From Psammoneis japonica (lineage: Eukaryota): 64,000 nt of DNA. Of the stretch, positions 2,662-58,279 are shown piece by piece (position 1 is the stretch's first letter; every line of letters starts with the position of its first letter). Below the pieces are notes generated by a model. The model was not told where the DNA came from. It worked only from the letters and a program-made list of their open reading frames with translations, and did no database searches. Where the stretch lies: assembly GCA_008632985.1 (NCBI GenBank), contig QPGO01000039.1:372001-436000 (forward strand), in the 5' to 3' direction. The translations under genes were made by a program, and so were the position numbers.

Positions 2662-3059
2662 GGTTGCAATAAGTAGTCGTTGTTCTGCTGTATTCTGTTG
2701 TTGTAATACTGTAAGAACGCAGTAGTTGCGCAATCAAATCAATGAAGAAAAAGAAGTAAGAGGGTACAATGCAAAGCAGCAACGATTCAAAAAGACTGCG
2801 GCGACAGCGGCATTGGTGAAAAGTGCGAAGGCAGTCCCACTCAAAATTCAAAATGACCAAAAAATTCAAAATGACCGCTAAAATAGGAAAACTTTGAAAA
2901 ATTGAAAAATGCATCTTTTTCCCTTTTTTCTTTCGAAACCATGACATCACGAACCAATGACAACTTGTCATGACAACGGTCATACCGGTATTTCAAAAAG
3001 CGCGACCAAACGGCAAAAACAAAACACGGGGATCAACGGGCGGCGCCTTTTTTCTCCGA

Positions 3060-4840
3060 TGCTGTTCGAGAAATTTTCAGTTTTGAAAAAGCTCACACAG
3101 TTTTGCAAAACAACAAGTCTTTAATTTTTCACTTTTGTCACCCAACAAAATTCACAGTTGAGTGCTGTGCCAGGGTCCCACCTGTGGCTCAAACTCGTCA
3201 AAACAAAAAATGGCCCCACAGAGTGTGTGGGTGGTGAGAGAGAGTGGCACAAAACACTGGTGTGCTGCAAGCTGGTGGGCCAAGATGAAGCCAGCACAAT
3301 GAGCAGTGAGACCAGCCCTGCACTGGCCTCCACATTGACAGCAAAAAACACACACACAGCCACAATGAAGAGAAAATGCTCATTGTGCGTCATTGCAAAA
3401 CACAGGGCGTGTGCTTCGAACAATGCAGTCAGATGCCAGACAACACTCTGGGCCACTTGATGGACAACAAAGGGGCGGTTTTGCGTGCACTGCCTTTCCC
3501 CCTGTTTGACCAGCTTTGCACTTTTTTCAAATTTGACCTTGGCTCTCAAGTTGGTTTTCTTCTTTTTTGTGTCACCTTGTCCAGATCAGCTTTGTTGCAC
3601 AGATTTTTCAGCATTGCTTGTGGGCACTCTTCACACAATGTTGAGCACAACAGGCACAAATGACCATGTTTTCTCTTGCCAGTGGCAGCCACAACTCTGC
3701 AAAAAGCAATTTTGTTTCTCTCAAATGGATGGCCTTTTCCATTGTGCACCAGCCCATGCATGAAATTTGAGTCTTGCTCTGTTTGCTTTTCCCCATTTGA
3801 GTGCTGTTTTCATCAGTTGTGCCCATGGGCACACCGGCACACCCACATTTTGCCAACAGAGTTGTCTCTCAAAACCCAGATGTGCCAGCACTTTCTCCTG
3901 TGAGATTGATGGCAGAGTGGGCTTTTGCAGCCTGAGCAGCTAAGGAGTTTGTTGCAGAGCTGCACATCATTGGCGTGCAAGGCAGAAGGTGCAGCAATGG
4001 CATTGCCAGTGACAGCGTCATTCTTTGTTGTGATTGGCGCTGCTTGTTCTTGATGTTTTGCTGGAAAGAAGTTGGAGTCAATGCTTTTTGTTGAGCTTGG
4101 TGTGCAGAGTTGACTTTTTGAATTTTGTTTGGCAAGCTTGTTGTTTTCATGGCACCATCTTCTTGATGGTTGGTGTGGCAGTGGTGTGGTTGGGCAATTG
4201 ATCTTTTGCAGCTGCAGTGCTGCTGCAATCGCTTCTTGAAAACTGTTGCATGAGGCAGCAGAGTTTGCTCTGTGTGGGGGGGCAACTGTCTGTTGGTGTT
4301 GTGTGGCAGAGACTGAGGAACTGGGCATTCTGAAGCTTGTTTGATGAGCTCAGTGTTTCAGTGGTGACAACTTGCTGTTTGTCAGAGTTGAGCATGGAGA
4401 CAACCCTGCAAATGAAGAAAACATTGGTGGAAGGACAGCGGGTGTTGCCTGCTGTGCTGGGAGAGCATGGCTGCACATTGGTGCTAGAAATGGGTGAGCA
4501 TCAGCAGCAGATGTGCTGGCTGCAGCAGCTGTTGGCATTGCATGCGGTTGAAGCTGGGCTGAAGCTGGGCGGTGGAAATGCCTGAGCTTGTTGAATGGCA
4601 CTGGCAAATCCACATTGCACACCATTCTCGCTTGCAGAAACCAGATTCATTTGTCAGTGCCCTTGCGGGTGCACCACCACCAGCAGCATGTTGCCTGTTC
4701 ACATTCATTGTTGCAGGTGATGCATTGAAAGCATCACTCTGCAAAGCTGTGGGGCCCTGGTCGGAGTGAGATGACAACAGCGGTCGCAGCATCTTTGGTT
4801 CGAAGCGTGGGTGAAATGGCACAGGAAACCATTTTTAGCC
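3060..4840. mobile_element. TpA/CpG-depleted decayed sequence, probable transposon or gene relic of unknown family
   Basis: Almost no TA or CG. Overlapping Cys/His-rich, Tyr-free ORFs in many frames; no recognisable domain. Confidence 0.45.
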
Positions 4841-5140
4841 ACTGGCTCTGCCAGCTAGTCTAGCTAGAGAAAAAAGAAGCTTAGCAGCGTTTACTACCTG
4901 CATGGCCACATGCACCGCATGCGGTGACTTTGCATAATCTAGTCTCTACGGCGTAGAAAAGACGGCGCCCTTGCCGGAAGTGCTTCGGATTCCCTTTGTT
5001 CACCCCCCTCCCCCACAAAAAGATCATGAACGCTCCGGGTTAAATACGAAACCGTGTTCTGACGATTCGATGTAGCACCCCTGCTGCCATGCTTCATCCG
5101 TTGGTTCCAGAATCGTTCGAAGCAGAGTAATGGTTGTTAC

Positions 5141-7816: not shown

Positions 7817-8286
7817 CGGACAGAGTCGTGTCGTGTGCTTTTTTTTGTCTCAAGAGAGAGAGAATTTTACAATGTGATGTTCGTTTGTTGTTTCATGAGT
7901 ACAGTAGCCAAAAAGGTACCGGTATCGTGTCAAAAAGCTTTTAGTTTGTCGTGCGCCTCGTCCTTCTCGTTTTTCTCTGATTGAGAGGCAGGTGCGTCCA
8001 GTCGTGCTTCGTGATGGGCGGACGGACGCTTTTCCGTTGAAAGTTGAACGGCAATTCCAAATTATTTGTGTTTGCATGCACATCTTTTTTTTTATGCAAC
8101 ACAAGTAAGTGCAACAAGACCTTCATTGACGTCGAGATCGTCGAGAGACCAAGCAGCAAGCAGCCAGAGAGACGAGAGTTTTGACAGTGAGGCTTCCGTG
8201 AGATTGTTGTGTTTCATGCAAAACGTTGTACTACCTTTCAGAGTAAAGCACTACTACGGTACCTGTGTTTCTCACGTGCTTGAACC

Positions 8287-9231
8287 ATGACAAAGGGTAT
8301 CCAACTGCCACGTCGTGTGCTTTTTCTGCTGCTCCATCTTTTTTTCGGTCAAATGATTTTTGCCCAAAATAATGACGAATGCAACGGCATGCAGCCTGGA
8401 GATATCATGGTTTCGGGATTCAACATGGATGACCCAGACGAGGTGATTCTAGTGATTCTCAAGAATATACCAAAGGGAACTCGATTTTTCTTGACAGACC
8501 GTCCTTGGAATGGAACCGGTTTTGTGGACGGTGATAACGATGGGACGCTCATGGTACGAGATTTTTTGGAACGCACATGGGTACAAACGACAATGACAAC
8601 CGATCAAACTCATTTACTCACATTGTTCTTTGCGTTAATTTTGTGAAAGTGGAATGTCGGTAGCACTCTTCCACAGAGTGTGGAAATCTGTTATCAGTGT
8701 ACTTTGGACGGGAGCGTGATTGACAATTTTGTTCCAGTCGAGACAAGTAACCCGAATCAAAGATTCTCTCTGGATAGCAAAGGTGATACCATGATTCTCT
8801 ACTGCATGACGACTGAATCACCAAACACCGGCAACAACATTCGTCACATTACTGCCCTTACAAACACTGGATTCTGGATCAATACTACTACTGATCAAGT
8901 AGTTAATGCTACCACAGAGCAGCAGTCTTTGTCTGACAGTGGTGCCAGTGTGTTGCCATCCAATCTTGCCACAGACACAGTCACGACTCTTTCCAACAAC
9001 TACAGTAACTACGAGTATGATGGCTTGTTGGTTGGGACACCCACTGAAATACGGTCTTACATGAGCAATGCTAGTTATTGGGATGGCCATGAGGGCTACA
9101 TTGATGACTTGCAGACCAAATCGTCCTTTAAAGTTATCGATGAACCCGATGAAAACAGTGCCTCGGAAACTACATCTAGAGACGTTTCAACACTTTGGAT
9201 GCTGCCAACATTTGCCTTGGCCTTTTTGTGA
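8287..9231 (+). CDS. Secreted, possibly GPI-anchored protein (lamin-tail-like beta domain suspected)
   Basis: Signal peptide; motif GDIMVSGFNMDDPD...IPKGTRFFLTD..W.G; intron 8554-8649 (GT..AG) joins LM|WNVG in frame with the 8680 ORF; hydrophobic C-terminus. Confidence 0.7.
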
Positions 9232-9749
9232 GTCTCACGTACAGAGAGGACTGGGGCAGCGAACTGTCTGCTTTCTTATAAACAACAAAGAGGATGTCGA
9301 GGAGAGATCCGCCTTAGAGACCGTAACAGCTTTCGTTTAATGTATGGTTCCCAGGAAGTGCTCTTACGTGTTCTTCGGTGTCGACATGATAATTCCTTAG
9401 ACTCATTCGGCCGTGCAGTATTGCGTGATAATGTCCTGTTCGAAAGTATAAGAGGTTCACAATGACGGTCAAGAAGTAATGTGGCCAGTCGTTCAGTTAT
9501 GTCGTTCTTGTCATTCCTTCGCATCCTTTCTATAATTCGCTTGCAGCATAAGTGGGAAAAATAATTCGTGTGCTTGTGCACCTGAGTGCATATTCGTAAT
9601 TCTGTTGGATTACCTGGCTTTTCCAATGGCATCGTGTCTACCTGTCTTTCCATGGTGTCAGACGAAACATGTGCCCGTTGTCCCCGGAATGTCGACTCTG
9701 GAAAATCGTGGCACTTCAAGCCAAAAAATATGACATTTGAACCATGTGA

Positions 9750-11500
9750 GTGTATGTCAGTTCTCACCATTGGTGTGTCTTGCCAACGCAGTGTGTGCGC
9801 TTCTAAATTGGCTTGCGGGCCGGGCAGCATGAAAATGTGGCATGTGGCTGTGTCAAAACTTGTTTGCCTTGTCCCGGCAGTGTGCCATTGCCCTTGTCAA
9901 ATTGTGTCTTCTTCTTTTGTCTTGTTGGTGTGTGACCTCAGACTGCATCTGCCAATGCTTGCAGCACTGCCTTTGCTTCTAGTGGGAAATGATCCTCAAA
10001 GAATCAGCCTTGCAGTCATGATGGTCCACTTGTGCAATCACAGAAGTTGTGAGTGGCAAACCTTGGCCACAGTCAAGCACCCCAGTCCAATCACCAAGGT
10101 TGTTTCCATTGCTTTTTGATTGCTTTTTGATGTGATGAGTTTGCACCTTAAGCCCTTGCCAATGCAGTGCACACTTTTGTCAGTGCCAGGCACATGCAAT
10201 CATTGCTTTTTGAGCTTGTTGCTGATGTGTCAATTGAGAAATTGGATTGTGACTTTGACCCTCAAGCTTGATTTCCCAAGAAGTTGACATTCAGATGTGT
10301 GAGTGGGTGGACAGATTGACTGTGATGGTTTTTGGCACTGTCCTGCACAATTTCCATGCAATGACTCTGAGAGCCACAATGACTTGATGTGCATTGATGG
10401 ATGCCGCCGCCATGCACAAAGTGTGGTTCAAGTGCCCCCCACACAGCACTTGGAGGGATTTTCCAAGTGATGCATCTTCCTGCTGAATGGGATGTTGTTC
10501 AACCCATTCATTCATGGCATGCACTGGCCACCCAAATGGTTGCATCAGTGACAATGCAAGGTTGTCACACCAGTGATTTTGGTGCAGGGGCTTGTCACCT
10601 GTTTTGGCATCCACATGCCTCCCCCTGACTGCCAGCACACTGATTGAGAAAAGTGCAGATCCCAAATGTGCAGGTCTCTCTTTTGCTTGCCACAATCAAC
10701 AAGTGTCACCAGCCAATGTCCCAAGCACCTCCAGTGTGTTGCTGGGGCAAATGCTGTGCTGTTGTCAGACAATTTCTTCTTTGAGAACTTGCATCACCAG
10801 GATGCAATTGGGGCATCAAATGAATGCCCCACAACCAAATCTGCTCATTCAAGCTGCAACTTGCTGTTGTGCATTTGTTGACCAGCGCAATGTCACTCAT
10901 GCTGGCTGTCAATGCCGCGGGCATGAGGGAATGAGAGATGAACTGCCTGAGTGCAAATCAAGGAGTTTGAGCACAGGAGCATGGATGGCAGCACAGATGG
11001 CCAAGGAACCAGTGTCATCATGCCAATTTAGTTGCAGGTGCTAAATGGGTTTGCACATGTTGCGCACTGATGGAAGTTCATCCAGTGACAAAAAGAGGGG
11101 TTTTTGTTCAGAGCACATGGCACATGTGGACTCAGCAACCCACACTTGGGCCTGTCCATTTGTTGAGGCCATCACAAAGGCTCCAGCATCATGGTGCCAT
11201 TGAACAGAGCAAAATGCCTTTGATGCAGAATTGGCTTGTTTTGAAAGATGCAATGTTGCCCACTCTTGTCACACCCCAGCAAGTTGCAAATGCAGACAGA
11301 TGTGTCGGCACTGAGCACAAATCTCTCTGACACTTCAATGCAGCCATGATGTGAGGCTTCCATTTGAAGCTCCCATGAGCTGGCATTTTTGGGAAAGCAA
11401 AAAGCAGGCAATCTGAATCTTCAAAAAATCATTTTTAAAAATGAGGAGTTTGATTTTGAAAATCCCCATTGCCCATCCATGATGCTTCTCATTTTGCTTG
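9750..11500. mobile_element. TpA/CpG-depleted decayed coding-like sequence of unknown identity
   Basis: Very few TA or CG. Long, partly open minus-strand frames broken by TGA; no domain recognised. Confidence 0.4.
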
Positions 11501-11775
11501 GACATCAATCACAACATTGATTGCTTGTCATCATGTGAGTGACAAGTCTGACCATGATCCATGCCACAGGGCCCTGTCCAGTCTGAGTTCTCCAGCTCAA
11601 GAGTTTGTTTTTCTGCTCTGGGCCCTGCTGCCTGTGAGCAGTTAGCAGCAGCACAGGCAAAGATGCGATGCACAAGAAATTTTTTTGAGGGACATCCATG
11701 ACTGAAACTTGTTTTTGCACGCCTCTCCATGCTGCACTTTTGCACATCACTTCATGTTGCCTCAACACATCAACA

Positions 11776-13700
11776 ACGGGAGTTGGAAATCTGTGGGTCA
11801 AAGCCCTTGGTGATGTCAACAAAGTACAGTCTGCATCATTTTCTGAGGCCAGTGGAAAAAGAGTTGGGATCGACACATTGGCATGGCTTCATGAAACATG
11901 CCACAAAGAGGCCACTGCACAGCGCTCCTGTCACAGCCACCGCATGCACCAAAGAGTTTGTTGACAGCAAATGAGTCCATGCACAACAAGCTTGTGTCAG
12001 CTGGGGCATCTCCTGTGCATGTTTTTGATGGGGCAAGGCATCCAATGAAGACTGCACGAAACAACAAGATTGCAAAAGCAGAGGCATGGATGGACAAGTG
12101 CTGTCAGAAAGGCAAAGCCGGTGATGCCATTGCTGAGGTTGACTGACACCAATCATTGCAAAGAGCAAGAGATCTGTGCAATCCTTCAGCAGACATCAGA
12201 GCTCATGTGGTCAAACAATGGATGTGGTTGGCAATGGGGCACAAGTCAACATGAATGTGCTCCATGTGAGTTCAAGCACCAACTTGTCAAGACAGAGGCA
12301 GATGGTCATGTCTGTGGTGTCATGATTGAGGACAGTGATGCCATCATTGTGGGGGCCAAGGTTGTTTGTTTTGAGGTTGACACATGGTTTGCCACATGGA
12401 AAGTGTGTGAAAGGAACTCCTTGCCCACCAATTGCCCCATTGGCACTCATGACTTCAAACACTGGGCAGTGACAGCAAATCTTCTTGGCTCAGACTACAA
12501 CCAACAAGTGGAGAACATGACTGGCCATTCAACAATCTTCAAGAGCATCCTTCTGAGGCTTGCTGGGGCAGATTGGTCTGGAGATGCTGCAGCAAGAGTG
12601 GTTGAGAAAGCATTTTGATGGGCTGCAATCCCAGCGGGCTGTGCAGACAACTTTGACAGGGCTGTGGTGCTGTTTGTGCACTGCCTGGTCCTTGACAAAA
12701 ATGACAATCTGGCTCCACTGCTGAATCCATTGGAAGGAAATGCAGGAGATGATCCTGGTTTGTCTTGGGGAGATGTCATTGGCTTCAACCCTGCTGAGTT
12801 GCTCCCCAATGCCATCACAAACTGCCGGATGGCATGGCAGTTTGAAGGGCCAACCTTTTTGAACAGCAAGGCATTGAGCAAGAAATTTTTGGCTCCTCTG
12901 TGCAATGCATCTGAGAATGAGCAACTTGTTGGGAAGGAGCTGCCTCTGTGTGCTTGGCTCAACTTCAAAGCCATGCCCATTCCATGTGTGCAAACTGACG
13001 TGATGCAGTGTTGGGCATCCACTTGACTCGGATGCCCCATTGCAGGTGATTGGTTGGAATTGGAGTTGGCTGTTCAAAGACTCATGTCAATCAACAAAGG
13101 AGCGCCAGAGCCAGAGAAAGTCCCGCTGCAAATTCAAAGATGGATGGTTCACAAGGTTGCAGTGCTGGTCAACAACAACATGGGTTGGGATCACAGTTGG
13201 TGTTGTGATTGCATGTTGGAGCTTGATTCAATGCTGTCAAGCTTGGTTGAAAACTTCTGCCAAAAAGGCAATGAACAACACAACCTTGAACAAAGGTTCT
13301 TGCTGTCACAAGGTGGCAGTTTGCTCATTGATGCAACAGAATTTATCTGCAGGACACTTGCCAAAGGCAACTTGGTTTGGCCGCTCAAACTCTGTTGCAT
13401 TCCATCCATGAAGACAGAAGTGGTGTCATCAAACCTGCAGTTGGCAAGCAACAAAAGATGCAGGAAGGCTGCATGCTTTGCTTGGAGTTTGATGCTGACA
13501 CAAAGAGTTTCTGTTGCACCCATTTTCATGCTGTGGATGCTGTGATGGATGAGGTGTGTGTTTGCACACTCTTGCAGCACCATTTTGAAAGAACGGTGCC
13601 TCCATCTCCAATCAACAAAGTGCCACTCTTGACTGAGCTTGTGACTGTGCAAGAGAAGACAAAGCTTGGCAGCATCAAAACAGGAAACAAGAGCCAGTGC
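11776..13700 (+). pseudogene. XPG/FEN1/Exo1-family 5' nuclease with C-terminal SWIM zinc finger (relic)
   Basis: N-domain (ACG)GVGNLW...GKRVGIDTLAWLH and PVHVFDGARHPMK; I-domain APCEFKHQL...GVMIEDSDAIIVG; H3TH LLGSDYN; SWIM-like CGCCDG*GVCLH at 13532-13567. Multiple frameshifts and TGA stops. Confidence 0.8.
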
Positions 13701-13756
13701 AGATTGAACCACCACAAGCAAACACAAATGATCATTTTGTGGCTGTTGCTCAATTC

Positions 13757-15900
13757 TCAATCCCAGTGGTTGACAGGAAGAACACTGTTGGCCCCTGGCC
13801 ATTGGAGTGGCATGCCAAGGTTCATTTCCATGTGCCCCCATTCCAACGTGCATGCGCGCATGGAACAACACAAAGATTCTTACATGGGACATCATTGTGA
13901 AGACCGTTCATGGCAACAAGCCAAGAAAAAGTTGCCTCCATCAGATGCTGCACCTTGCAAATGTGTCTTTCTTGTTTTCAAGTTCCAGCTCATCATGTTG
14001 TTTGACAGTTCATGGTTGCAAGACTCAAGGTGTGCACACTTGATTGAAACAATGTGGAAAATGGTGCTCTGTCTTCTCAAAACCTTTGTCACCACTGAGT
14101 CCTTTTTGTTTGGAGGGATTCTGTGCATGTGCAAGCAGACTTCCAGAGGTGACTCTGGGTCATGCATTTTGCAGTTTTGGTGGAATCAGTTTGCTTCCCA
14201 TCCAGCCCACAATTTTCCTTTGTCATTTCAAAGCAGGCACTCAGGATGTTGCGCTGGATGGTTTCAAGTTGTGCAGCCTGTGGAGTCTCTCAAACACCTT
14301 GAGTTGCTGAAGAAAAATGACTCTGGATCATTTTGTGATGAGCAGGCCAACGCCTTTTCATTCAAAGCCTTTGACAAGGCTTGGTCTTCACAGACAAGTG
14401 ATGCAGCCTTGTCAACTCCGGCATGTTTGAGTTTTTCTCCTTTTTCAACGTCTCAATTCTTTCATTCAACCATTTGTTGCACTTCACAAAAACATGCTCA
14501 CACTTTGAAACCTCCTCACCATCACTGTTGGTGCTGGATTCTGCAGAAGACATTGACACAACGCTTTTTCACTCCAGTTGTCACTTGAGTCTGTCCAGTT
14601 GGACTCACAACCATTGCTCTGAGAGTTGTCACTGTTGTTGGATTCTTCAGACCATTCAACATTTTGGTGGCCTGCACTCATGTGATTGACAAGGCTGTCA
14701 CCAGACTCTTGAGAATGTTCAATGACAGCTCCAATCCAAGCATTGTTGGTTGTGCCATTTTCCATGTCAAAGCAATCACATGGTGTTGAGAGAATCAAAA
14801 GAAATTCTCTGGACTTGGCCCACTGTGGTGCCCATTTTTCAACACATCTCTTCACTGAATGCCGTGAGACATGCCAAAAGCAGTTCCAGTGATCTTGCAC
14901 ACCGGGCAATGCTGTGCAAAGTGCTTCACAATCAGCAGCTGTTCAAATTTGGTTGGATTGCATTTTGGTGTTCTGTCATCTCCATCCAAATGGATTTCAG
15001 ACACAAAAATTGGTGCATCAACAAAGAAGCATGAGATGTGATGTTTCATCTTCTCCAAAGTGTGAAACCCAAACATGTTCTTGAAGCTGTTGGATTGTCA
15101 GTGCGCCATTTGGGTGATGCAAGTTGACAATGAGCAGCAGAATCTGAATCAAGAAAATCTGTGACAAAGTTTTCAATGTCACATTTGTCAAACAAAGGCT
15201 CAGTGTTGGCCACTTCAGTTTCATGCTTCCTGTGTGCGCTCACCCGGTTGCCTTGTTTCAGCAGCGAGATGATGTCTCCTGAGGTGCACTCTGAGCTGAC
15301 TTTTTAACAACTTCCAGCTCCATTGCTTTTGAAGGCTCATTCTCTTTGTCATGTGATGCTTCTCCATCATTGACACAATCACCAAGAGTGAGTGGGTTGA
15401 ATCTTGCTTGGCATCCCTTCAGCTTCGCAACTCCTCGTGCTTGTCCAGTGCTTGGTTGTGCACACTGCATGGCAACTTCCTCGTCTCCATCAACAATGAA
15501 TTCTCATTGGCACATTGGGACAATGAAAATGTGCTGCATCAGATCCCTTCACAAAGTGCTCACGGTCGACCACCTCCGCACCGCGGGCAGGGGTGCAGAT
15601 GGTTTCTTGCCGCCTTCAAAAGAGAGCGCAGTCATTGACTGACGGTCCAATGATGCCTTGCAACAGGAGCCTGATCCCCAAGTTGTCAATCACATCACAA
15701 GATGTTCCAAAGTTCACCAACACTGCTTCTCTCCATTTCTCTGCTTTCTCCAACTTGCCTCCAAGTCGCAGATGCACACATCGCCCGGCACGAGGTTCAT
15801 CTTTGCCTGCTCTTCGGCTCAAGCACGAAAACTCTCTTGGATCTCACAGCACTTTAGACCCCAGCTGCAAACCCATTGATCTTTCTCCTTGTGGGACAAG
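13757..15900 (-). pseudogene. DDE_Tnp_4-type (Harbinger/ISL2EU) transposase relic
   Basis: HTH_Tnp_4-like FEQLLIVKHF...GTAFGMS..SVKRCVEKWAPQW (~14820-14950); catalytic-region GDKGF (14079-14093) followed by NQVCTP*VLQP*TVKQHDELE; C-terminal LEWGHMEMNLGMPL. The 5' boundary is approximate. Confidence 0.72.
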
Positions 15901-16371
15901 AGGAGGTCGGGTGCTGCGCGCACAGGTGTTGTCATCGTATGAATGAATCTCAGATGCTGCCAGTGCGGGTGTGATGGTGATGGGTGCTGCAAGCGCAAAA
16001 TTTGGCCTGCTTTGTTTAGTCGATCGTGGATGTCGGATGTCCCTCAAAATTTTAGCGTCAAGATTTTCACGTGCGTTTTTACGTGGGTGATCACTGCTTG
16101 TGCTGTTGTCCTGTTTTGCTCCCAACAGTCTCAAACCGGCCTCCCATACCGGTAGACTACTATGAACCAAACTTCACGATAGCCTTATTGTTTCATTGGG
16201 ATGCACTTGCTCTTGTCTTGTTTTTTTTCTTGTTCTTGGGTGCGAGCGAATCAAGGTGTGTTTGGTGCGTTCTTCGAAACTCCAATGGATCTCAGCATCA
16301 GGGATTTCTGCCGATGATTCCAACCTTTCACCTCGCTATGGCGGATTGGACCACGACTACGGAAATCACCA

Positions 16372-18649: not shown

Positions 18650-20720
18650 CGGCAATGCAAACTCTACGAAGTGCAACACCTCATGATGCTCTGTTCTGGC
18701 AGCAACCGCCCCAATCCATTTCGTTGCAAGAACAAGCAGTTCTCGTCTAAACATGCACGAATGTAGATTGCACCTCTTCCAAGTTGTCACCGATGTGCAA
18801 AGCATAGACACTCATTCATCGGGGTGCTTCCGCTTGCCTGCCCTTGCCCTTTTGGACTTTTCTGTGGAGGCAAAAGAAGTTCTTGTGGTTGTTGATGGCA
18901 TGGTCCAGAGGCAAAACTGCTGTCGACTCAACTTGTGAGACATGGGTTGGTGACCTCAGCTCCAGCAACCACCAACCCTCACAAACTCCAAATCTTCCAA
19001 AGAAACACCTTCCTTCAGCTCAACTCCCTAAAAAAGACAAAATGGTTGGCCTGCCAGGACTTGTCTGATCACAATGGTGAAAGCACCACCAAGTCACATC
19101 TTCAACTTCATCAGGTCATCACAAATTGGGTGACAAAGCACAAAGAAAACAAGTGGAAGACAGAACATGCTGCTGCTGAAGATGCTGACAAGACATTTTG
19201 TGACACTTGTGTGGATGTTGCTGAGTCCTGGCACATGGAGGTGGCAAATGTGCAAACAAAGCCCAAGAGCATTGCAGATGTCTCCTTCCCCCTGAGATTG
19301 ACAAAATGCAATGTTGTCAATCCTTGAAGCACTGAACATTTCATCTCAAAATTTTCTTTGTAAAGACAATGAGACACAGCCATTCAGTGAAGCATCCAAC
19401 TCTCATTGCGTGTCAGCACACAGTCTTCTTTTTGGAAAGACAAATGCAGAGGTCCAACAACACACTTTTCCCATCCCACCACTGGCATGGTTGGTTTGTG
19501 ACCAAACTGGAAGTGGTGTGCAAAAATGTGGTTCTGGAAATTTGAAGCATTGCAAGTCTGCCTTTGTGAACTTGCAATGTGCAGCATGTGCAATTTGGAA
19601 AACTCTGCCCAACAAGCCAAAAAGAGACCCACATCAAACTCATTTGTGCCAGAAAACAACAAAAGAACAAGGGGGGTTGTTGGTTTGCACATTGTGTGTG
19701 ATGCCACAGATAAAGTGTCACAAAGATTGGGTGTTGCCATGAAAATGAGAGCCACCAAGGTGGGTTTCATGCTGCTGCAGCCACCCATCCAACAATGGCC
19801 AAAAACGTGGTTGCCATGGGGGCGCGAGTGCATGGGACCAGCACACAGCGCTCTGATGTCTGATGACACAAGAGGTGACCTGCCACAGCTGTTGCTTTGT
19901 CATCATTGCCAATTGCCCACCACGGAGAACTGGGTCTGCCACATTGAAACATCACACCAGCTGCCAACTTGGAGGACACATTTGTGTTTGCTTTGTTGGC
20001 GGTGCAGTGTGCTGGGAATTGTAGAGCCAGAGGAGAGGGCAACATCATGCTGTGTCAAAAAAGAACACCTCATCAAAATCTGACTGCAAGTGGTGCAAGA
20101 GAGGTGCCTGTCAAATCTCCTCAATGCTGCGACAACAATGGACACAAACAATTGCTTGTTGTCACGCACGCTGCTTTGCATCTGTGGCCTCTGCCCTCCA
20201 GCCCTGTGGCTGCAGTCTCTGCTTTTTGGTGGGAAAGAACAAGGTCATGTGCTGAAACATCACACCAGCTGCCAACTTGGAGGACACATTTGTTTGCTTT
20301 GTTGACGCTGGGAGCAGCAGCCACAGAGAGGAGAGGAGAGAGGGCAACATCATGCTGTCACAGAAAAAAGACAACTCATCAAAATCTGACTTCAAGTGGT
20401 GTGCAAGAGAGGTGCTTGTCAAATTCCCTCAATGCTGTGACAATGGACACATGCAATTGCTTGTCGTGCACGCTGCTTTGCACATCTGGCCTCTGCCTCC
20501 AGCCCTGTGGCTGCAGTCTCTCTGCTTTTTGGGAAAGAACAACAAGGTCACGTGTGCTGATTCCTGCTGTGAAGAGGGTGCCATGTTCACTCCATTCCAC
20601 TCACTGGAGTGCTCAGCACATTTCTCTGGAGATCACAGCATGGTGCTCCATTGCTCTGCGGTGACACTTGCTCCAGTGTGTGGCTTCAGTCAATTGAAAA
20701 AGCAATGAGCTGCATCGCAA
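18650..20720. mobile_element. TpA/CpG-depleted decayed sequence
   Basis: Dinucleotide depletion, Tyr-free ORFs and an internal tandem duplication. Confidence 0.45.
19945..20560 (+). repeat. Imperfect tandem duplication, ~308-bp unit x2
   Basis: TGAAACATCACACCAGCTGCCAACTTGGAGGACACATTTG starts at 19945 and at 20253; the rest of the units is colinear with small indels. Confidence 0.9.
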
Positions 20721-24379: not shown

Positions 24380-25136
24380 ATGGAGCAGGGCTGGGAAAGG
24401 GTGATGAAGGAATGCGTACGTCCAGTCGTTCTCTTCTACATCCCCATAATTCTTGCCTGTTACGGCTTGACAGTGATGTCGATGAAGCGGACAAAGCCCG
24501 AGTGGACTGGAATCAAGCTGCAAAAGCTTGCTGGGCAGCTATCCATGTATCCTCCCTTGTGTTGATCTTCGCTTCACATGCAACCATGTAGATCGTCGCT
24601 TCTGGACACTTGATTAAAAAGAACGAACCTGCAAATCGACCCACATGTGTGATGGGTTTTGCAATTTTTACGTTGCAACCAACATTGTTCTGACGATTGG
24701 TCAGATCCAAACAGCAAAGCCTCCGTTGCTGTACCAACTATTGGCCCATCATGTGGTTTCCATCACGTGTCACGTTGGAGGCTTTTACCTTGACACTTTC
24801 CGTTGAATCTCTTTTTGGTTCCCGTGTTTGCATGTAAAGAGCATTTCCCAGAATGGCGCAAGCATTCGTGGCATTTGTGGAACAGCAGGTTGCTGTGGTT
24901 GACCTTTTGTCACGCACAGACTTATTCTTTTTCCCTGTTGGCGGATTCTTTGGATCTGAGAACGATGGCAGGCTGTAGCAGCCGAGGGAGCGGATGTTCA
25001 CTTGGTTGAGACTCTCCTTTATCCCAGTGCTATCTTTGGGCTGTTGGTTCTTTCCACGATTTGGTTCCTCACAATTGACCGTGGACTCAAGAAAGAAATC
25101 GTTGCGTACATGAAAGCAAAGAAGAAGAACGAATGA
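24380..25136 (+). pseudogene. TLC (TRAM/LAG1/CLN8)-domain membrane protein, disrupted
   Basis: Fragments across frames: LLYQLLAHHVVSI, NLFLVPVF, LLWLTF.THRLILFP, LLVLSTIWF...GLKK. In-frame TAG/TGA stops, frameshifts and an apparent internal deletion. Confidence 0.6.
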
Positions 25137-25379
25137 GTGTCATCGTCCATCAACATGGCCTTTCTTAGACACCACAGCTAGTACGAGCAGAAGACCAGCT
25201 GCCGACATGCTTTTTTCACTTGACGCGTTCATTGTTGTAATAAGAATTAAGATCACCTGGCTGCCAGGCGCACTTACATGCAAATACCACACCACATTTG
25301 AAAGGATCCATCGCAATCCCTAGATCAATGCGCATGACTTCCTAAAGAAATATTTTCATGTCGTTTCTAAATTTTGATC

Positions 25380-26430
25380 TCTGCAAGTCCATGGCTTCTG
25401 TCGCGTCTTCAGCCAAGACTCTGAGATCTGGCTGAGCAGGGGTGCCCAGGGGTCTGGTGGGCCAGGTGTCTGGGGGGCTTGGGGTGTTGACACGTGGGTT
25501 CAGAGTTTTTGCAAATCTGATCTGCAACTTCATGGCCCTCCGCTGAGTTGTCTGTTGTCTCGTGGCACTCTTTCTGTGCAGCACCGCACCTCCAGCATGA
25601 CACACACCACAACCTTCTCCAGACTGCCCCAAATGCTGGCACCCGCAGTGGCTGAGCACACCCCAGAAGCCAAAAGTGTTGTGCAAGTGAGACATCAAAG
25701 AGATTTCAAATTTCTTCTCAACTCACTCATGCTGCAGTCCACACTGGGTGTTGCACAATTCCATGGCAGGGTCAGTTGGATGACTTCACATCTGTGCAAC
25801 AATTGCCGCCCCTCCCCCCCAAAAGCTGAAAGCACTCCAAAAGCCAAGCTGAAAGCACCCCAAAAGCCAACTTGTCTGTGCTGTGGGAAACGACATTTTT
25901 CGCAGTGTTTTCTCCACTCAACCCACGCGCAATTGCAAGCTGTGCAATTGTTTCTCTGTTTCATGCCACTTTTCTTGATGCAAACCTGTCACCCCATTTT
26001 TTAGCTCCAAAATGCAGGCACACTCCTCATGCACAGCTGCAGCCTCCGCAGCTGCTCCTCTGTCCAACTCACCGCTTTTCTTGATGCAAACCTCCTGTTG
26101 CTCCGCCTTTTGAGCACCATGTGTCGACACTCCTCTTTGCTGCAAACTTCACAAGAGTGGCTCAGCTGCCGCATTTTGGCCTGCGCCACAGACACTCAAA
26201 TGACAACACTAGCGTGCAATCAAAAAGTTTGAACAGGGCCAAAAGCCATGACTTTTCCACAGCTCCCGCACACTGCACCCAGAGTGCAGCATCTGACAAG
26301 TTTTTTCTTGCACCCCATTGCCCTTGGACGCTGAGAGATGCACTGGCCATTCAGATGTGCCATCCACATTTCCATGCAGCATGGATCTCTTCGCTGTTGT
26401 CCAAACTGCAGGTCGGTGCCAGTTTTCACA
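25380..26430. mobile_element. TpA/CpG-depleted decayed sequence
   Basis: Dinucleotide depletion; largely open minus-strand frame at 25342-26145 with TGA interruptions. Confidence 0.4.
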
Positions 26431-26553
26431 ATAATTGACAATTTTGCTTCTATGTGCGTGGCAACTGTGCGTGGCAAACAGCACGTCATAATAAATGTAA
26501 GGAGCGAATCGAAAGCCTCAGTTTTGGCAAAAGCACACACATCTAAAAGGGGA

Positions 26554-26626
26554 AGGTCCTACCGAGAATCGAACTCGGGTCGCAGGAATCAGAACCCTGA
26601 GTGATAACCAACTACACTATAGGACC
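26554..26626 (-). tRNA. tRNA-Gln (anticodon CTG)
   Basis: Reverse complement GGTCCTATAGTGTAGTTGGTTATCACTCAGGGTTCTGATTCCTGCGACCCGAGTTCGATTCTCGGTAGGACCT: acceptor stem GGTCCTA/TAGGACC, anticodon arm CAGGG-TTCTGAT-TCCTG, T-loop TTCGATT, and a TTTT Pol III terminator just downstream. Confidence 0.95.
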
Positions 26627-26799
26627 AACAACTGCCTTGGTGGCTGTGTGGGTTTTTAAACGTTGAAGTGAGATTTGCGCACCCTCTTTGATCATCGATC
26701 CCCAATCCCGCGTGCAATGCGAGTGCCCACCGAAATGATCAAATGCCGACATCATGATGTTTTTTTCTAACCAAACAGCTCAAAGTCCACTTGTTCTAC

Positions 26800-28620
26800 T
26801 TTTGCTCAACTGAAAACCACTCATTCATCAGAAAAGAGCTTGTGCTGCACTGCAGGGCAAAAAAGGTTCTTCCAAGTGGCTTGACATCGCACATCGAAGC
26901 ACACCCACACATGGAGCAGTTTGTTTGTGCTCCAACTTTTGCCGCTTGAGGTGCAAAAACAAGACTCCTCTTTGACTGAGCAAGACACCAAAAACTGCCT
27001 TCATGCACTGGCCAAGTGTGCAAGACCCAGACCACTGTAGAATTTGTTCCAGAGGTGTGCTCCCAGCCAGAGGGGGGCCTCTGTGTGACGTTGCCCCACA
27101 AATTTTTCTGTGCTTGCCAAGCTCCACAGTTTGTGTGATGGGTGTTTGGCACATCTGTCTTTGACATCTGAACAAACAAGCAATTTTGTTGCAAGAATGC
27201 AGCTGTGCTTTTCAACACTTGTTGTTTTTGAAACCCACCTGAAGTCATGCAGACATGTGCGTGCATGACATTGCAGCACAAATGACGAAAGAGCACAACA
27301 ATGCTGAGGTTGTGGCCCAGTGCTGGCACAAGAAGGCCCCGCCCAGAGCTGGAGTGTGTCAGCAAAAGATGGTGGCTGGCTTCCAATGTGAAGTGTCAAG
27401 AGGAAGGGGAAAAGCAATTTTCTGATCAGCTGCTGGACATTGCCAGTGTGCGTGAGTTTTCTGGCTGTGGAGTGTGGCCCAAGCACACAGAAGCTGGCAA
27501 GTGGGGTGCAGAACATTCAAGTGACAAACAGAATGAGTTGACAAGCAATCCATTGCTGCAGCGCTGTTGTTGCTGAATGACTTCCAGTGCCATGCTTGCA
27601 AACAAAATGCATTTTCCTTGATTTTTTCAAGCAGTGTGTTGGAAGTGAGAAACAGGCATGGTGGCTCTCTGCCCCCTGCTTTCATTGTGCTTTCATTTTT
27701 TTTTTTGCAACATGGCAAAGTGCGCACACAAATTCACACAGACTTCTGGCTGCACCCCCCCATGCCCCATTTGATCAACTGAAACAAGCACTCTGAGAGA
27801 GAGAGAGAGAGAGAGCGCTTGCCTGTCCCCACCCAAACACTCATCAAATGACCTGGTCAGTGCAAACAAAAAGGCTCACAGCTCCCACAAGTGGTGCTTG
27901 GCTGCCCTCATTTGTGGGGCTCTTTGGGTTGCAAGACTGGCACAGCTGCTGATGCAGAGTGACAAAGAAGATGATGCAAGAAGCACCATCAGATTGTTGA
28001 GCAGCAGCAGAAAAAACTCACATGCTGCAAAGAACTTCTGTGGCTCTTGCACCTTTTGTTGCTGTGTTTGTGCTGGCTCTGTGTGTTTGACTTTGTCATT
28101 TACAGAGGCAAGCACAATTCCATCACCATCCATCACCACAACAAGCAGAAAGCATTTTCTGAAGCAAGAGTTGTGAGATCAAAAAAGCACAACAGCTGTG
28201 GAATGATGCACGACCCCTCCCCAGCAGTGTTGCTCTGGCAGTCTCATCTCAAGATGGAGCGACACTTGCATCTCTTGTCATCACAGCAGCATGCCCTTGC
28301 AAGGAAATTGCAGGTGGACACCACTCTTGTGAGCTGAGCCAATCTCTCTTGGCTTCCTGGTGACATCTTCTAATTTCAACAACTGCATCTCACAATGGTG
28401 ACAAGGACCACAGTTCGCCACATGCCTGCCGTTGCAGCCAGCAGAAGAGCAGAGCCAACTCCAGCCCCTGATGTGACAGCTTGAGTTGGTATGAGGGAGA
28501 ACACTTCAATCAGCAAAGACTCAAGAGGCACTCTCAATTCTCGAAAGCAGTTTTTGTTTGTTGCAGGTCAACACATGGTTCGAGTGTGCAGTGTGCAGTT
28601 CACAAGAAGTTCAGCAATGG
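26800..28620. mobile_element. TpA/CpG-depleted decayed sequence
   Basis: Dinucleotide depletion; no recognisable domain. Confidence 0.4.
27795..27815. repeat. (GA)10 microsatellite
   Basis: Directly visible. Confidence 0.95.
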
Positions 28621-58226: not shown

Positions 58227-58279
58227 AATCGGATGGGTTGCTCCTTTCTGTAGAGACAAGTGAGTTTCAAAGCAATTTG

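What the first reader, a model, noticed from the sequence alone, without database searches (positions are those of the whole stretch)
11683..16049. Harbinger/ISL2EU-like transposon carrying an XPG/Exo1 nuclease-SWIM gene
Seen: convergent XPG-family nuclease+SWIM (+) and DDE_Tnp_4-like transposase (-) relics end close together near 13.7 kb, and each starts just inside one copy of a 15-bp inverted repeat. Established: Harbingers carry a Myb/SANT accessory gene, and ISL2EU elements carry a YqaJ (lambda-exonuclease-like) gene. Inference: here an unrelated 5'->3' nuclease fold fills the accessory slot, suggesting non-homologous replacement and possibly a distinct lineage that needs end processing for transposition.
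Basis: partly seen in the sequence, partly recalled or inferred. Interest (0 to 1): 0.8.

Follow-up and report, generated by a model that had tools for sequence, protein, structure and literature searches.

The report
Dead transposon with its own EXO1-like nuclease
This stretch is the decayed remains of a two-gene jumping element in a microbial eukaryote, in which a transposase-like protein of an unannotated family travels with its own EXO1-type DNA nuclease, a pairing that is rare and hardly described.

Summary
The observation largely holds. A perfect 15-bp inverted repeat (11683-11697 / 16035-16049) brackets two convergent gene relics whose 3' ends lie about 60 bp apart.

The + strand relic (11776 to about 13697) belongs to a small, distinct family of about 650-aa EXO1-like XPG nucleases ending in a CxCx6CxH zinc knuckle. 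It is not a host EXO1 pseudogene.

The - strand relic (15876 down to 13757) is not a Pfam-recognisable DDE_Tnp_4. It is a broken copy of an about 870-aa protein family with no Pfam annotation. That family fits the published PHIS (Harbinger/ISL2EU/Spy) catalytic signature in five of six spacings, with a 227-residue insertion.

The two genes are also convergent neighbours in a second eukaryotic contig (L006), and probably share a third contig.

Both relics are dead, with frameshifts, stops and a lost catalytic segment. They lie in a strongly CpG-depleted block, and the source reads hold further diverged copies.

The best reading is a relic of a two-gene cut-and-paste transposon with a nuclease accessory gene. 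Assigning it to PHIS rather than Academ is likely but unproven. No target-site duplication or empty site could be established.

The parts
11683..11697 (.). Left arm of the perfect 15-bp inverted repeat (candidate TIR), TTTTGAGGGACATCC
   Evidence: chance estimate
16035..16049 (.). Right arm of the 15-bp inverted repeat (candidate TIR), GGATGTCCCTCAAAA
11680..11682 (.). TTT directly outside the left arm. With TTT at 16050-16052 it is a possible 3-bp target-site duplication. The reading is ambiguous because it lies in a T7 run. The flanks read gAAATTT[...]TTTTagc.
   Evidence: sequence; inference only
16050..16052 (.). TTT directly outside the right arm (possible TSD partner)
   Evidence: sequence; inference only
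11713..11760 (.). 25-bp tandem repeat (1.9 copies, 78% matches) between the left arm and the nuclease start. Possibly a subterminal repeat. Not followed up.
11776..13697 (+). Relic of an EXO1-like XPG nuclease gene with a C-terminal zinc knuckle. The Met position reads ACG. There are at least 4 frame changes, near 11919, 12224, 13434-13493 and 13590. In-frame stops include TGA at 12144, 12616, 13024 and 13550. The second acidic residue of the family's FEAEWQ motif is K here (CEFKHQ).
   Evidence: C-terminal tail read by eye against P0001
13529..13567 (+). Zinc knuckle CCGCCDG*GVCLH (family consensus CxCx6CxH, SWIM-like), with TGA where the family has Arg
13757..15876 (-). Relic of the about 870-aa partner (putative transposase) gene. 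It is collinear with P0055, P0057 and P0059 from about aa 28 to the C-terminus, in three frames, with many stops. The stop TGA is at 13759-13757.
   Evidence: tblastn; family HMM
15505..15804 (-). N-terminal region of the partner (family motifs CxCxWDDC, VARHHWS, PNxP). It is a possible THAP-like DNA-binding domain, supported only as a lead.
   Evidence: hmm 26-125, iE 1.1e-07; THAP clusters, score 0.88
14760..14879 (-). HTH region of the partner (VSRHSVKRCVEKWAPQWAK), homologous to the stretch that gives sub-threshold HTH_Tnp_4 hits in intact relatives
14483..14759 (-). Where the first catalytic Asp (FxxDGKD), the conserved Lys and the conserved Glu should lie. Family-profile positions 409-590 have no match, and only about 92 codons remain. 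The D1-K segment appears deleted.
13757..14315 (-). C-terminal catalytic half of the partner: GDKGFEKTEHHFP..., the R-x3-E region and TLEWGHMEMNLGMPL...NHWD*, in three frames
   Evidence: 55.1, 12.1 and 22.7 bits; tblastx to L006
10001..15500 (.). CpG-depleted block (CpG o/e 0.07-0.28, against about 0.85-1.05 in the flanks). It starts about 1.7 kb left of the left IR arm.

Best explanation
Window 11683-16049 is a dead, mutated copy of a two-gene cut-and-paste DNA transposon.

In intact relatives one gene encodes an about 870-aa protein. From N- to C-terminus it has a Cys/His N-terminal domain, a coiled coil, a helix-turn-helix, and a D..K..E...D..P..R-x3-E catalytic core. The core is of the PIF/Harbinger-ISL2EU-Spy (PHIS) kind, split by a 227-residue insertion. 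This protein is the putative transposase.

The convergent gene encodes an about 650-aa EXO1-like 5' nuclease that ends in a CxCx6CxH (SWIM-like) zinc knuckle.

Inferred mechanism: the transposase binds the 15-bp terminal inverted repeats and makes the 3'-OH cuts and strand transfer at an AT-rich target. The element's own 5'-3' exo/flap nuclease processes the other (5') strand at the transposon ends, or resects and repairs the donor and target gaps. This is the job that the unrelated YqaJ exonuclease is thought to do in ISL2EU elements.

What is shown: gene identities, family membership, synteny in a second genome, the IR, and the decay. What is inferred: mobility, the PHIS assignment, the TSD, and the role of the nuclease.

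This copy cannot move on its own. Both genes carry frameshifts and stops, the nuclease start codon is lost, and the transposase segment holding the first catalytic Asp is missing. The region is CpG-depleted, as expected for long-methylated repeat DNA.
For: NUCLEASE. phmmer of the read-through frame 12049-13545 found only 41 proteins at E<=1e-3 among 1.84 billion. The best were E=7.1e-49 and 4.5e-40. 13 of the 14 hits scanned carry XPG_I and/or XPG_N (12 at Pfam domain level, P0003 only sub-threshold) or no family (P0005); the 14th is a spurious peptidase. The full-length hits that reach the C-terminus (4 of the 7 fetched: P0001, P0006, P0007, P0038, plus P0024 with a CxC variant) share the C-terminal PFSCCGCYDGRxxCSH motif. 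The family profile hits EXO1 best in the PDB (3.2e-37), ahead of Rad2 (1.6e-28) and FEN1 (about 1e-21).

PARTNER. tblastn of three full-length proteins maps collinearly to 15843 down to 13763 on the minus strand. The HMM domains are collinear from hmm 26 to 830. The only other hit in the 64-kb window is noise at iE 5.2.

CO-OCCURRENCE. In L006 a nuclease gene at 8001-9305 (488.7 bits) is followed by a convergent partner ORF at 9713-10168 (284.3 bits), cut by the contig end. L006's other ORFs are eukaryotic-type genes (VTC, NUDIX, DUF202). Nuclease P0006/P0044 and partner P0063/P0088 both come from NCBI+ENA+JGI records on a contig of exactly 6509 nt. That they share one contig is an inference.

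CATALYTIC SIGNATURE. In 26 aligned partners, counting non-gap rows: D1 is D in 15 of 16, K in 15 of 15, E in 15 of 15, D3 in 18 of 18, P in 18 of 18, R in 17 of 18, and E in 18 of 18. The spacings are 22, 29-30, 227, 18, 25 and 3. The published PHIS signature is D(19-29)K(29)D(18-40)D(11-19)P(18-28)R(3)E (PMC4122938, passages read). HTH_Tnp_4 is the only Pfam family hit by more than 2 of the 26 members. It hits 5, best E=0.00059. The nearest language-model clusters are DDE_Tnp_4 at 0.91.

ENDS. The 15-bp IR is perfect, and 2 of 3000 shuffles reach it.

REPEAT NATURE. Contigs of run X1 tile the locus with almost no differences, so the stops and frameshifts are real. A further 20 of the 39 laid contigs are only 90-95% alike. 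Summed depth rises from about 72 to 262 at 11971-12127 and to 264-495 at 15739-15895, and 5 contigs carry A>C at 15879.

DECAY. CpG o/e is 0.229 in the element against 0.832 in the rest of the window. TpG+CpA o/e is 1.83 against 1.32.

EXPRESSION ELSEWHERE. One partner fragment (P0071) is an MMETSP transcript.
Against: No partner member passes any Pfam threshold, 0 of 26. DDE_Tnp_4 appears in only 1 of 26, at E=0.082.

The 227-residue gap between the second acidic residue and the GDKGF Asp lies far outside the PHIS range of 18-40. The conserved second acidic residue is Glu, not Asp.

The AlphaFold model of the core was poor (mean pLDDT 54.1). No RNase H fold could be shown.

No empty site, no unambiguous TSD and no second full copy with the same termini were obtained. 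The TIR motif is absent from L006 at up to 3 mismatches.

Only one nuclease copy was found in the 7-Mb assembly holding L006.

Of 20 nuclease clusters looked up, only 1 shares a contig length with a partner cluster. Most of those contigs are too short to hold both genes. However, four nuclease contigs of 5.7-17 kb and several partner contigs of 5-54 kb show no such match in my incomplete lists.

In L001 an intact nuclease gene has 243 bp of downstream sequence without a convincing partner C-terminus (iE 0.051).

The CpG-poor block begins about 1.7 kb left of the left IR arm. The true left border could therefore lie elsewhere.
Confidence: 0.66

Rival explanations
1. It is a relic of a mobile two-gene element, but the transposase belongs to another superfamily. 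The most likely candidate is Academ, whose AcademX lineage encodes a nuclease (of XPG type by my recollection). It could also be an unnamed superfamily rather than PHIS/ISL2EU.
For: AcademX is described as generating 3-4 bp TSDs and encoding a nuclease (PMC10045372, passage read). The Academ RNase H-like domain has no detectable Pfam similarity (PMC5751038, passage read). The partner here also has none. A long insertion inside the catalytic core (227 residues) is untypical of PHIS. The 'TTT' reading of the flanks would be a 3-bp TSD. Curated Academ elements average 5565 bp (PMC10294476), the same order of size as this element.
Against: Five of six PHIS spacings fit, with invariant K, P, R and E. 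The only recurring Pfam family is HTH_Tnp_4, which accompanies DDE_Tnp_4 transposases. The language-model neighbours are DDE_Tnp_4 clusters. By my recollection, AcademX fuses the transposase and XPG in one protein, whereas here they are separate convergent genes. No Academ sequence could be brought in, so this rival is untested rather than rejected.
Confidence: 0.17
2. The two genes form a conserved, non-mobile host cassette, for example a domesticated transposase working with a repair nuclease. The cassette became a pseudogene pair here, and the 15-bp inverted repeat is a coincidence or a regulatory palindrome.
For: Copy number is low where it could be counted, 1 in G001. No TSD or empty site was shown. 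Intact members are seen as single ORFs on metagenome contigs. One member is transcribed (P0071).
Against: The source reads hold several diverged copies (20 of 39 laid contigs at 90-95% likeness, with local depth 3-6 times the baseline). Both genes are dead here, and the nuclease is truncated in L006, which argues against a needed host function. Distribution is patchy: 41 nuclease representatives among 1.84 billion proteins. Strong CpG depletion is typical of silenced repeats. The perfect IR sits exactly outside both gene starts, matched by 2 of 3000 shuffles.
Confidence: 0.1
3. The adjacency is chance: a one-off host EXO1 pseudogene next to an unrelated decayed gene.
For: Pfam on the window alone gives only weak XPG hits and nothing on the minus strand.
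Against: The nuclease matches a dedicated family across its non-catalytic 300-aa tail and zinc knuckle. No canonical EXO1 was among the 41 hits scanned or fetched. The same pair of families is convergent in L006.
Confidence: 0.02

Closest known systems
ISL2EU elements (PHIS superfamily; PMC4482050 and PMC4122938, passages read)
   Same: Both are two-gene elements with TIRs. The transposase is described as having THAP + HTH + DDE, and the partner here has a Cys/His N-terminal domain (THAP only as a lead), an HTH_Tnp_4-like stretch, and a D-K-acidic-D-P-R-x3-E core. The second gene is a nuclease with 5'-3' polarity. The target is AT-rich, and the flanks here read AAATTT/TTTT.
   Different: The accessory nuclease is EXO1/XPG-fold, not YqaJ (lambda-exonuclease fold). 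The transposase core carries a 227-residue insertion and a Glu at the second acidic position. No Pfam DDE_Tnp_4 or THAP hit passes threshold. A 2-bp AT TSD could not be shown.
PIF/Harbinger elements
   Same: Both have two genes and short TIRs, and may share a 3-bp TSD. Both show the PHIS catalytic signature and an AT-rich target.
   Different: There is no Myb/SANT accessory protein. The transposase is about twice as long. The TSD, if it is TTT, is not the TWA consensus.
AcademX lineage of Academ transposons (Kojima 2020, not held in the library; nuclease and 3-4 bp TSD quoted from PMC10045372; 'XPG' and 'fused protein' are recalled)
   Same: Both are DNA transposons carrying a nuclease (of the XPG family by recollection). 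The transposase lacks Pfam similarity. The 3-4 bp TSD is compatible with the TTT reading.
   Different: Here the nuclease is a separate convergent gene with its own zinc knuckle. The transposase motifs fit PHIS. The relation of the two nucleases and the two transposases could not be tested.
Kolobok lineages with accessory nucleases (KolobokE lambda-exonuclease-like, KolobokD DnaQ, KolobokP His-Me; PMC9587614, passages read)
   Same: The principle is shared: a DDE transposon that recruits its own nuclease, sometimes encoded on the complementary strand downstream of the transposase.
   Different: The transposase superfamily and the nuclease folds differ.
Tn7 TnsA/TnsB (recalled, used only as a working analogy)
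   Same: It is a possible model for division of labour: a DDE protein cuts the 3' ends and a separate nuclease cuts the 5' ends.
   Different: It is bacterial, and TnsA has a restriction-enzyme fold. There is no evidence here that the EXO1-like protein cuts the transposon ends.

Membership tests
XPG/Rad2 5' nuclease family (EXO1-like) | XPG_N and XPG_I domains | tested here: met
   Intact relatives pass the Pfam cut-offs, e.g. P0001 XPG_N 47.5 bits and XPG_I 28.6 bits. The window relic alone is sub-threshold at 15.8 and 19.6 bits, but scores 254.7 bits against the family profile. The best PDB relative is EXO1 at 3.2e-37.
XPG/Rad2 5' nuclease family (EXO1-like) | Intact set of acidic active-site residues | tested here: not met
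   This applies to the window copy. GIDTL, VFDG, EDSD and GSDY are kept, but the family's FEAEWQ reads CEFKHQ, with Lys at the second acidic position. The gene also has frameshifts and stops (read by eye). Intact relatives keep the residues.
SWIM zinc finger (PF04434) | CxCxnCxH motif | tested here: met
   The family reads CCGCYDGRxxCSH, i.e. CxCx6CxH. The window reads CCGCCDG*GVCLH. That this pattern defines SWIM is recalled.
SWIM zinc finger (PF04434) | Pfam score over the curated cut-off | tested here: not met
   No SWIM hit at E<=0.01 in 14 of 14 proteins scanned. On C-terminal pieces the best is 13.9 bits against a 19.6 cut-off, for L001 only. L004 and the window give none.
PHIS superfamily (PIF/Harbinger, ISL2EU, Spy) | DDE_Tnp_4-type catalytic domain recognisable by profile | tested here: not met
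   0 of 26 partner proteins pass Pfam. 1 of 26 gives DDE_Tnp_4 at E=0.082. The window's minus strand gives none.
PHIS superfamily (PIF/Harbinger, ISL2EU, Spy) | Signature D(19-29)K(29)D(18-40)D(11-19)P(18-28)R(3)E (PMC4122938) | tested here: inconclusive
   The spacings are 22, 29-30, 227, 18, 25 and 3, with near-invariant D, K, E, D, P, R and E. Five of six are in range, one is far out, and the second acidic residue is Glu.
PHIS superfamily (PIF/Harbinger, ISL2EU, Spy) | HTH (HTH_Tnp_4) before the catalytic core | tested here: inconclusive
   5 of 26 members hit it, best E=0.00059, all below the 27-bit cut-off.
ISL2EU group | N-terminal THAP domain in the transposase | tested here: inconclusive
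   No Pfam THAP hit. Language-model neighbours of P0057 residues 1-150 are THAP clusters at 0.88, which the tool calls a lead only.
ISL2EU group | Second ORF with a YqaJ exonuclease domain | tested here: not met
   The second ORF is XPG/EXO1-like.
ISL2EU group | 2-bp AT target-site duplication at A|AT|T | tested here: inconclusive
   The flanks read gAAATTT[TIR...TIR]TTTTagc. AT fits the right side only if the TIR is shortened by one base. The left side lies in a T7 run. No empty site is available.
PIF/Harbinger group | Myb/SANT accessory protein and TWA TSD | tested here: not met
   There is no Myb/SANT gene inside the IRs. The possible TSD is TTT.
Academ superfamily (AcademX) | Academ-type DDE transposase | not testable with these tools
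   No Academ sequence or profile could be obtained. Kojima 2020 and Yuan & Wessler 2011 are not held.
Cut-and-paste DNA transposon (general) | Terminal inverted repeats | tested here: met
   Perfect 15-bp IR.
Cut-and-paste DNA transposon (general) | Several copies at different loci, empty sites, TSD | tested here: inconclusive
   Diverged copies are indicated by contigs of the source run. The window holds no second copy, no whole genome is held, and no empty site was found.

The most novel reading that the evidence does not exclude
The element represents a distinct, undescribed lineage of PHIS-related transposons of marine microbial eukaryotes. Its enlarged D-E-E transposase, with a 227-residue inserted domain, cannot finish transposition alone. 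It works as a two-protein machine with a dedicated EXO1-like nuclease tethered through its SWIM-like knuckle. The nuclease would cut or resect the 5' strand at the ends, in the manner of TnsA/TnsB. The 5' nuclease partner would then have been acquired independently three times in this clade's relatives (YqaJ in ISL2EU, XPG here and in green-alga elements noted earlier in this scan). That would point to a general need of PHIS-type transposition for 5'-end processing.
Probability: 0.25. Interest if true: 0.8.

Novelty: new variant of a known kind. Interest (0 to 1): 0.55.

Why it matters
How PIF/Harbinger-ISL2EU-type transposases cleave the second DNA strand, and why many of them need a second protein, is unsettled. 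If a lineage of these elements carries a well-understood enzyme type (an EXO1-like 5' exo/flap nuclease) as its obligate partner, that question becomes directly testable with an intact pair from the metagenome relatives.

The work also gives a function lead for two protein families that have no useful annotation: the about 870-aa partner family (27 members found) and the about 650-aa XPG-plus-knuckle family (41 representatives).

It shows that 'exonuclease 1'-like genes in algal and protist genomes may be transposon genes.

The window copy itself is only a fossil. Its value is as a pointer to the family and as evidence that such elements invaded this lineage and were silenced.

Tried and rejected
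GENOME AND NEIGHBOURING FINDINGS
- No whole genome is held for the window. Copy number, consensus, TSD and empty sites could therefore not be determined.
- There is no second copy in the window by blastn or tblastx.
- Earlier-findings look-ups by place and by sequence gave nothing. A look-up by diatom words also gave nothing.

HOMOLOGUE AND CONTEXT SEARCHES
- The word-index search with the decayed nuclease found nothing.
- The first alignment (A1) was too diverse for a locus scan. The smaller A2 gave 5 metagenome loci, all too short for context (1.0-2.5 kb).
- The viral contig scan gave 0 relatives.
- PF13359 was sought to obtain genuine DDE_Tnp_4 sequences for a profile comparison. There were 0 matches in G001 and 0 of 151 genomes of its phylum, so no hhalign test was possible.
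- A PDB profile search with the partner family gave only two noise hits, E=0.056 and 0.83.
- Contig-length matching of nuclease and partner clusters gave 1 of 20 nuclease clusters matched, at 6509 nt.
- A weak partner-like hit downstream of the L001 nuclease (iE 0.051) was not counted.
- The TIR motif was not found in L006.

STRUCTURE
- The AlphaFold2 model of P0058 with 26 sequences had mean pLDDT 54.1, with the catalytic parts under 50. No fold search was run on it.
- Complex prediction was not run. The alignments are shallow, the cognate pair exceeds the size limit, and the contacting domains are unknown.

READS AND BORDERS
- Sequencing runs: no RNA holder is listed. The only strong holder (X1, 0.96 of words) is probably the source sample, so it gives no independent strain and no empty site.
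- No alternative terminal IR was found for the wider CpG-poor block.
- Pfam six-frame scans of 9700-11700 and of four other CpG-poor blocks gave nothing.

MY OWN READING
- My by-eye DDE reading (EFIVDGDEEV...GEASHD at 15258-15503) was rejected, because that stretch aligns to the N-terminal third of the homologues.

LITERATURE
- Full-text searches on ISL2EU/Harbinger/YqaJ, XPG + DNA transposon + transposase + second ORF, EXO1/transposon-encoded/Harbinger/SWIM and Academ + XPG turned up no description of an XPG/EXO1 nuclease gene in a PHIS element. For some searches I read only the search listings and start-of-abstract lines, not the papers.
- No held paper contains both 'Academ' and 'XPG'.
- Kojima 2020 and Yuan & Wessler 2011 are not held.
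- Repbase and Dfam could not be consulted.
- No paper's supplementary tables were opened. The family tables of PMC4482050 may bear on whether such a family is already listed.

Full report
WHAT IS THERE

The window is eukaryotic. It has long ORFs with Pfam hits such as Cas1_AcylT, Glyco_transf_41, Myb arrays, Peptidase_M16 and DUF6824. That DUF6824 is typical of diatoms or stramenopiles is my recollection, and I did not verify the taxon.

The perfect 15-bp inverted repeat is real. Its arms lie at 11683-11697 and 16035-16049. It is the only occurrence of that word in the 64 kb at up to 2 mismatches. When the two about 400-bp zones upstream of the two gene starts are shuffled, a perfect inverted repeat of 15 or more arises in 2 of 3000 trials. 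The zones were chosen after the fact.

THE + STRAND GENE

Pfam on the raw ORFs gives only sub-threshold XPG_N (E=0.02, 11895-12146) and XPG_I (E=0.0012, 12049-12618).

The read-through of frame 12049-13545 was scored against 1.84 billion representative proteins. It found just 41 proteins at E<=1e-3, the best at 7.1e-49 and 4.5e-40. The alignments run far beyond the nuclease core (query 67-463).

Of the 14 hits scanned, 13 carry XPG_I and/or XPG_N (12 at Pfam domain level, P0003 only sub-threshold) or no family (P0005), and one is a spurious peptidase. The full-length hits are about 640-735 aa. Those that reach the C-terminus end in ...PSMKTEV...YPFSCCGCYDGRxxCSH....

The family profile finds human EXO1 first in the PDB (3.2e-37). 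Rad2 follows at 1.6e-28, FEN1 at about 1e-21 and GEN1 at 5e-14. So this is a separate EXO1-like clade with a long tail and a CxCx6CxH knuckle. The relic is a member of it, not a copy of the host's EXO1.

The SWIM label is motif-level only. Pfam SWIM reaches at most 13.9 bits against a 19.6 cut-off.

On the window, the family profile maps to three stretches:
- 11779-13434, one frame, 254.7 bits.
- 11919-12224, another frame, 51.6 bits.
- 13493-13594, a third frame, 16.5 bits. This holds PFSCCGCCDG*GVCLH.

The family's Met-Gly start reads ACG-GGA at 11776. There are in-frame TGAs at 12144, 12616, 13024 and 13550, the last where the family has Arg. The second acidic residue of FEAEWQ is Lys. By eye against P0001, the tail (FERTVPPSPINKVPLLTELV...) continues in a fourth frame to about 13697.

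THE - STRAND GENE

Pfam finds nothing there, neither in single ORFs nor in three read-through frames at E<=10.

The key came from a relative of the nuclease in the genome collection. L006 is the end of a 674-kb contig filed under a Pirellulaceae MAG, but its ORFs are eukaryote-type genes: VTC split over ORFs, DUF202, NUDIX and Trypsin. In L006 a nuclease gene at 8001-9305 is followed by a convergent ORF at 9698-10168, cut by the contig end.

tblastx shows that this ORF is homologous to the window's minus strand at 13760-14180.

With that 156-aa piece (P0054), the word-index search returned intact proteins of 877, 866 and 865 aa plus fragments. A profile of them returned 27 members in all. None has a precomputed Pfam domain, and one is an MMETSP transcript.

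tblastn of the three full-length proteins and a family HMM map collinearly onto the window's minus strand:
- hmm 26-125 at 15804-15505.
- hmm 200-374 at 15382-14864.
- hmm 369-408 at 14879-14760.
- hmm 591-648 at 14482-14312.
- hmm 647-764 at 14315-13962.
- hmm 760-799 at 13974-13855.
- hmm 798-830 at 13852-13754.

These lie in three frames with many stops. The only other hit in the window is noise (iE 5.2). The stop codon is TGA at 13759-13757, about 60 bp from where nuclease homology ends.

Profile positions 409-590 have no counterpart, and only about 92 codons remain there. This stretch holds the first catalytic Asp, the conserved Lys and Glu, and an acidic insert.

IS THE PARTNER A TRANSPOSASE, AND OF WHICH KIND?

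No member passes a Pfam threshold. HTH_Tnp_4 is the only family hit by more than two of the 26 members. It hits 5, best E=0.00059. DDE_Tnp_4 appears once at E=0.082.

The protein-language-model neighbours of P0058 are DDE_Tnp_4 clusters (0.91, all ten best in one clan). Those of the N-terminal 150 residues of P0057 are THAP clusters (0.88). The tool rates both as leads.

The published PHIS signature is D(19-29)K(29)D(18-40)D(11-19)P(18-28)R(3)E (PMC4122938, passages read). I compared it with the 26-member alignment, counting non-gap rows:
- D in FxxDGKD: 15 of 16.
- K: 15 of 15.
- An invariant E: 15 of 15.
- D of GDKGF: 18 of 18.
- P: 18 of 18.
- R: 17 of 18.
- E: 18 of 18.
- Spacings: 22, 29-30, 227, 18, 25 and 3.

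Five spacings are in range. One is not, because of a 227-residue, partly acidic and partly helical insertion. The second acidic residue is Glu.

ISL2EU transposases are described as THAP + HTH + DDE with a YqaJ second ORF (PMC4482050, passages read). That is the closest published architecture.

The AlphaFold model was too poor to show a fold (pLDDT 54.1). A PDB profile search gave nothing.

I rate 'PHIS-related transposase' as likely, not shown. The main alternative is Academ. Its AcademX lineage encodes a nuclease and makes 3-4 bp TSDs (PMC10045372; that the nuclease is XPG and is fused to the transposase is recalled). Its catalytic domain also lacks Pfam similarity (PMC5751038). No Academ sequence could be obtained for a test.

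ARE THE TWO GENES ONE UNIT, AND IS IT MOBILE?

For:
- The pair recurs convergently in L006.
- Nuclease P0006/P0044 and partner P0063/P0088 both come from NCBI+ENA+JGI records with a contig length of exactly 6509 nt. That length is enough for both genes. That they share one contig is an inference.
- The IR sits just outside both starts.
- Contigs of the one run that holds the locus tile it almost without differences, so the stops and frameshifts are not assembly noise. The differences are an extra G after 15430 and C>T at 14485 and 15791.
- A further 20 of the 39 laid contigs are only 90-95% alike, and summed depth rises locally 3-6 fold. This indicates other diverged copies in the same sample.
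- The element's CpG o/e is 0.229 against 0.832 for the rest of the window, with TpG+CpA excess.

Against or open:
- There is no empty site and no clear TSD. The flanks read gAAATTT[...]TTTTagc. That allows TTT as a 3-bp TSD, or an AAATTT-type target as in Spy/ISL2EU, but it lies in a homopolymer run.
- There is no second copy in the window, and only one copy in the 7-Mb G001.
- The TIR word is absent from L006.
- Only 1 of 20 nuclease clusters shares a contig length with a partner cluster.
- An intact nuclease on L001 has no convincing partner within 243 bp downstream.
- The CpG-poor block starts at about 10.0 kb, 1.7 kb left of the left arm, with no Pfam hit and no alternative IR there.

EARLIER NOTES OF THIS SCAN

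A word search showed that other agents had reported intact Harbinger/ISL2EU-type transposons with an XPG-SWIM nuclease in Ostreococcus and related picoalgae. I did not test those claims. Sequence look-ups with P0055 and P0001 found no look-alike in earlier windows. The present families are therefore not close relatives of anything already indexed. The notes agree with the reading that this nuclease type travels with PHIS-type transposases and extend it to green algae, but they are not independent evidence.

VERDICT

The flagged region is a fossil of a two-gene DNA transposon whose accessory gene is an EXO1-like nuclease with a SWIM-like knuckle.

The idea of a transposon-borne nuclease is not new (ISL2EU-YqaJ, Kolobok lineages, AcademX). 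I found no description of this particular pairing or of the about 870-aa partner family in the papers I could search. Repbase could not be checked.

I file it as a new variant of a known kind, of moderate interest. The copy in hand is dead, and the interest lies in the intact relatives.

Noticed in passing
window 10001-11682: Strongly CpG-depleted DNA (2-3 CpG per 500 bp, o/e 0.07-0.10) continues about 1.7 kb to the left of the left IR arm. It has no Pfam hit in six frames and no terminal IR of its own. It may be another old repeat, spread of methylation, or part of a larger element.
   Followed up: partly
window 3001-5000, 19001-20500, 25001-28500, 58001-60000: Four further CpG-poor blocks (1-kb o/e down to 0.11-0.17). 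They show no DNA similarity to each other or to the element. They gave no Pfam hit at E<=0.001 in six read-through frames.
   Followed up: partly
L006 (1-10169), end of a 674-kb contig filed as a Pirellulaceae MAG: The ORFs are eukaryote-type (VTC domain split over two ORFs, DUF202, NUDIX, Trypsin) and GC is about 47%. The contig looks like eukaryotic DNA binned into a bacterial genome.
   Followed up: partly
window 48699-52108: Tandem array of Myb-domain ORFs on the minus strand, with repeats 77-92% identical at DNA level.
   Followed up: no
window 11713-11760: 25-bp tandem repeat (1.9 copies) between the left IR arm and the nuclease start. It could be a subterminal binding-site repeat.
   Followed up: no
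window 13332-14588 (+): The longest open frame in the region (418 aa, no Pfam hit) is for most of its length (13757-14588) the antisense of the partner relic. It is not a gene in its own right.
   Followed up: yes
window 14485, 15430, 15791: The run's contigs differ from the window here (C>T, one extra G, C>T). These are alleles or assembly errors inside the relic.
   Followed up: no
window 19945-20560: Local tandem duplication of about 310 bp at 82% identity inside an ORF-rich stretch.
   Followed up: no
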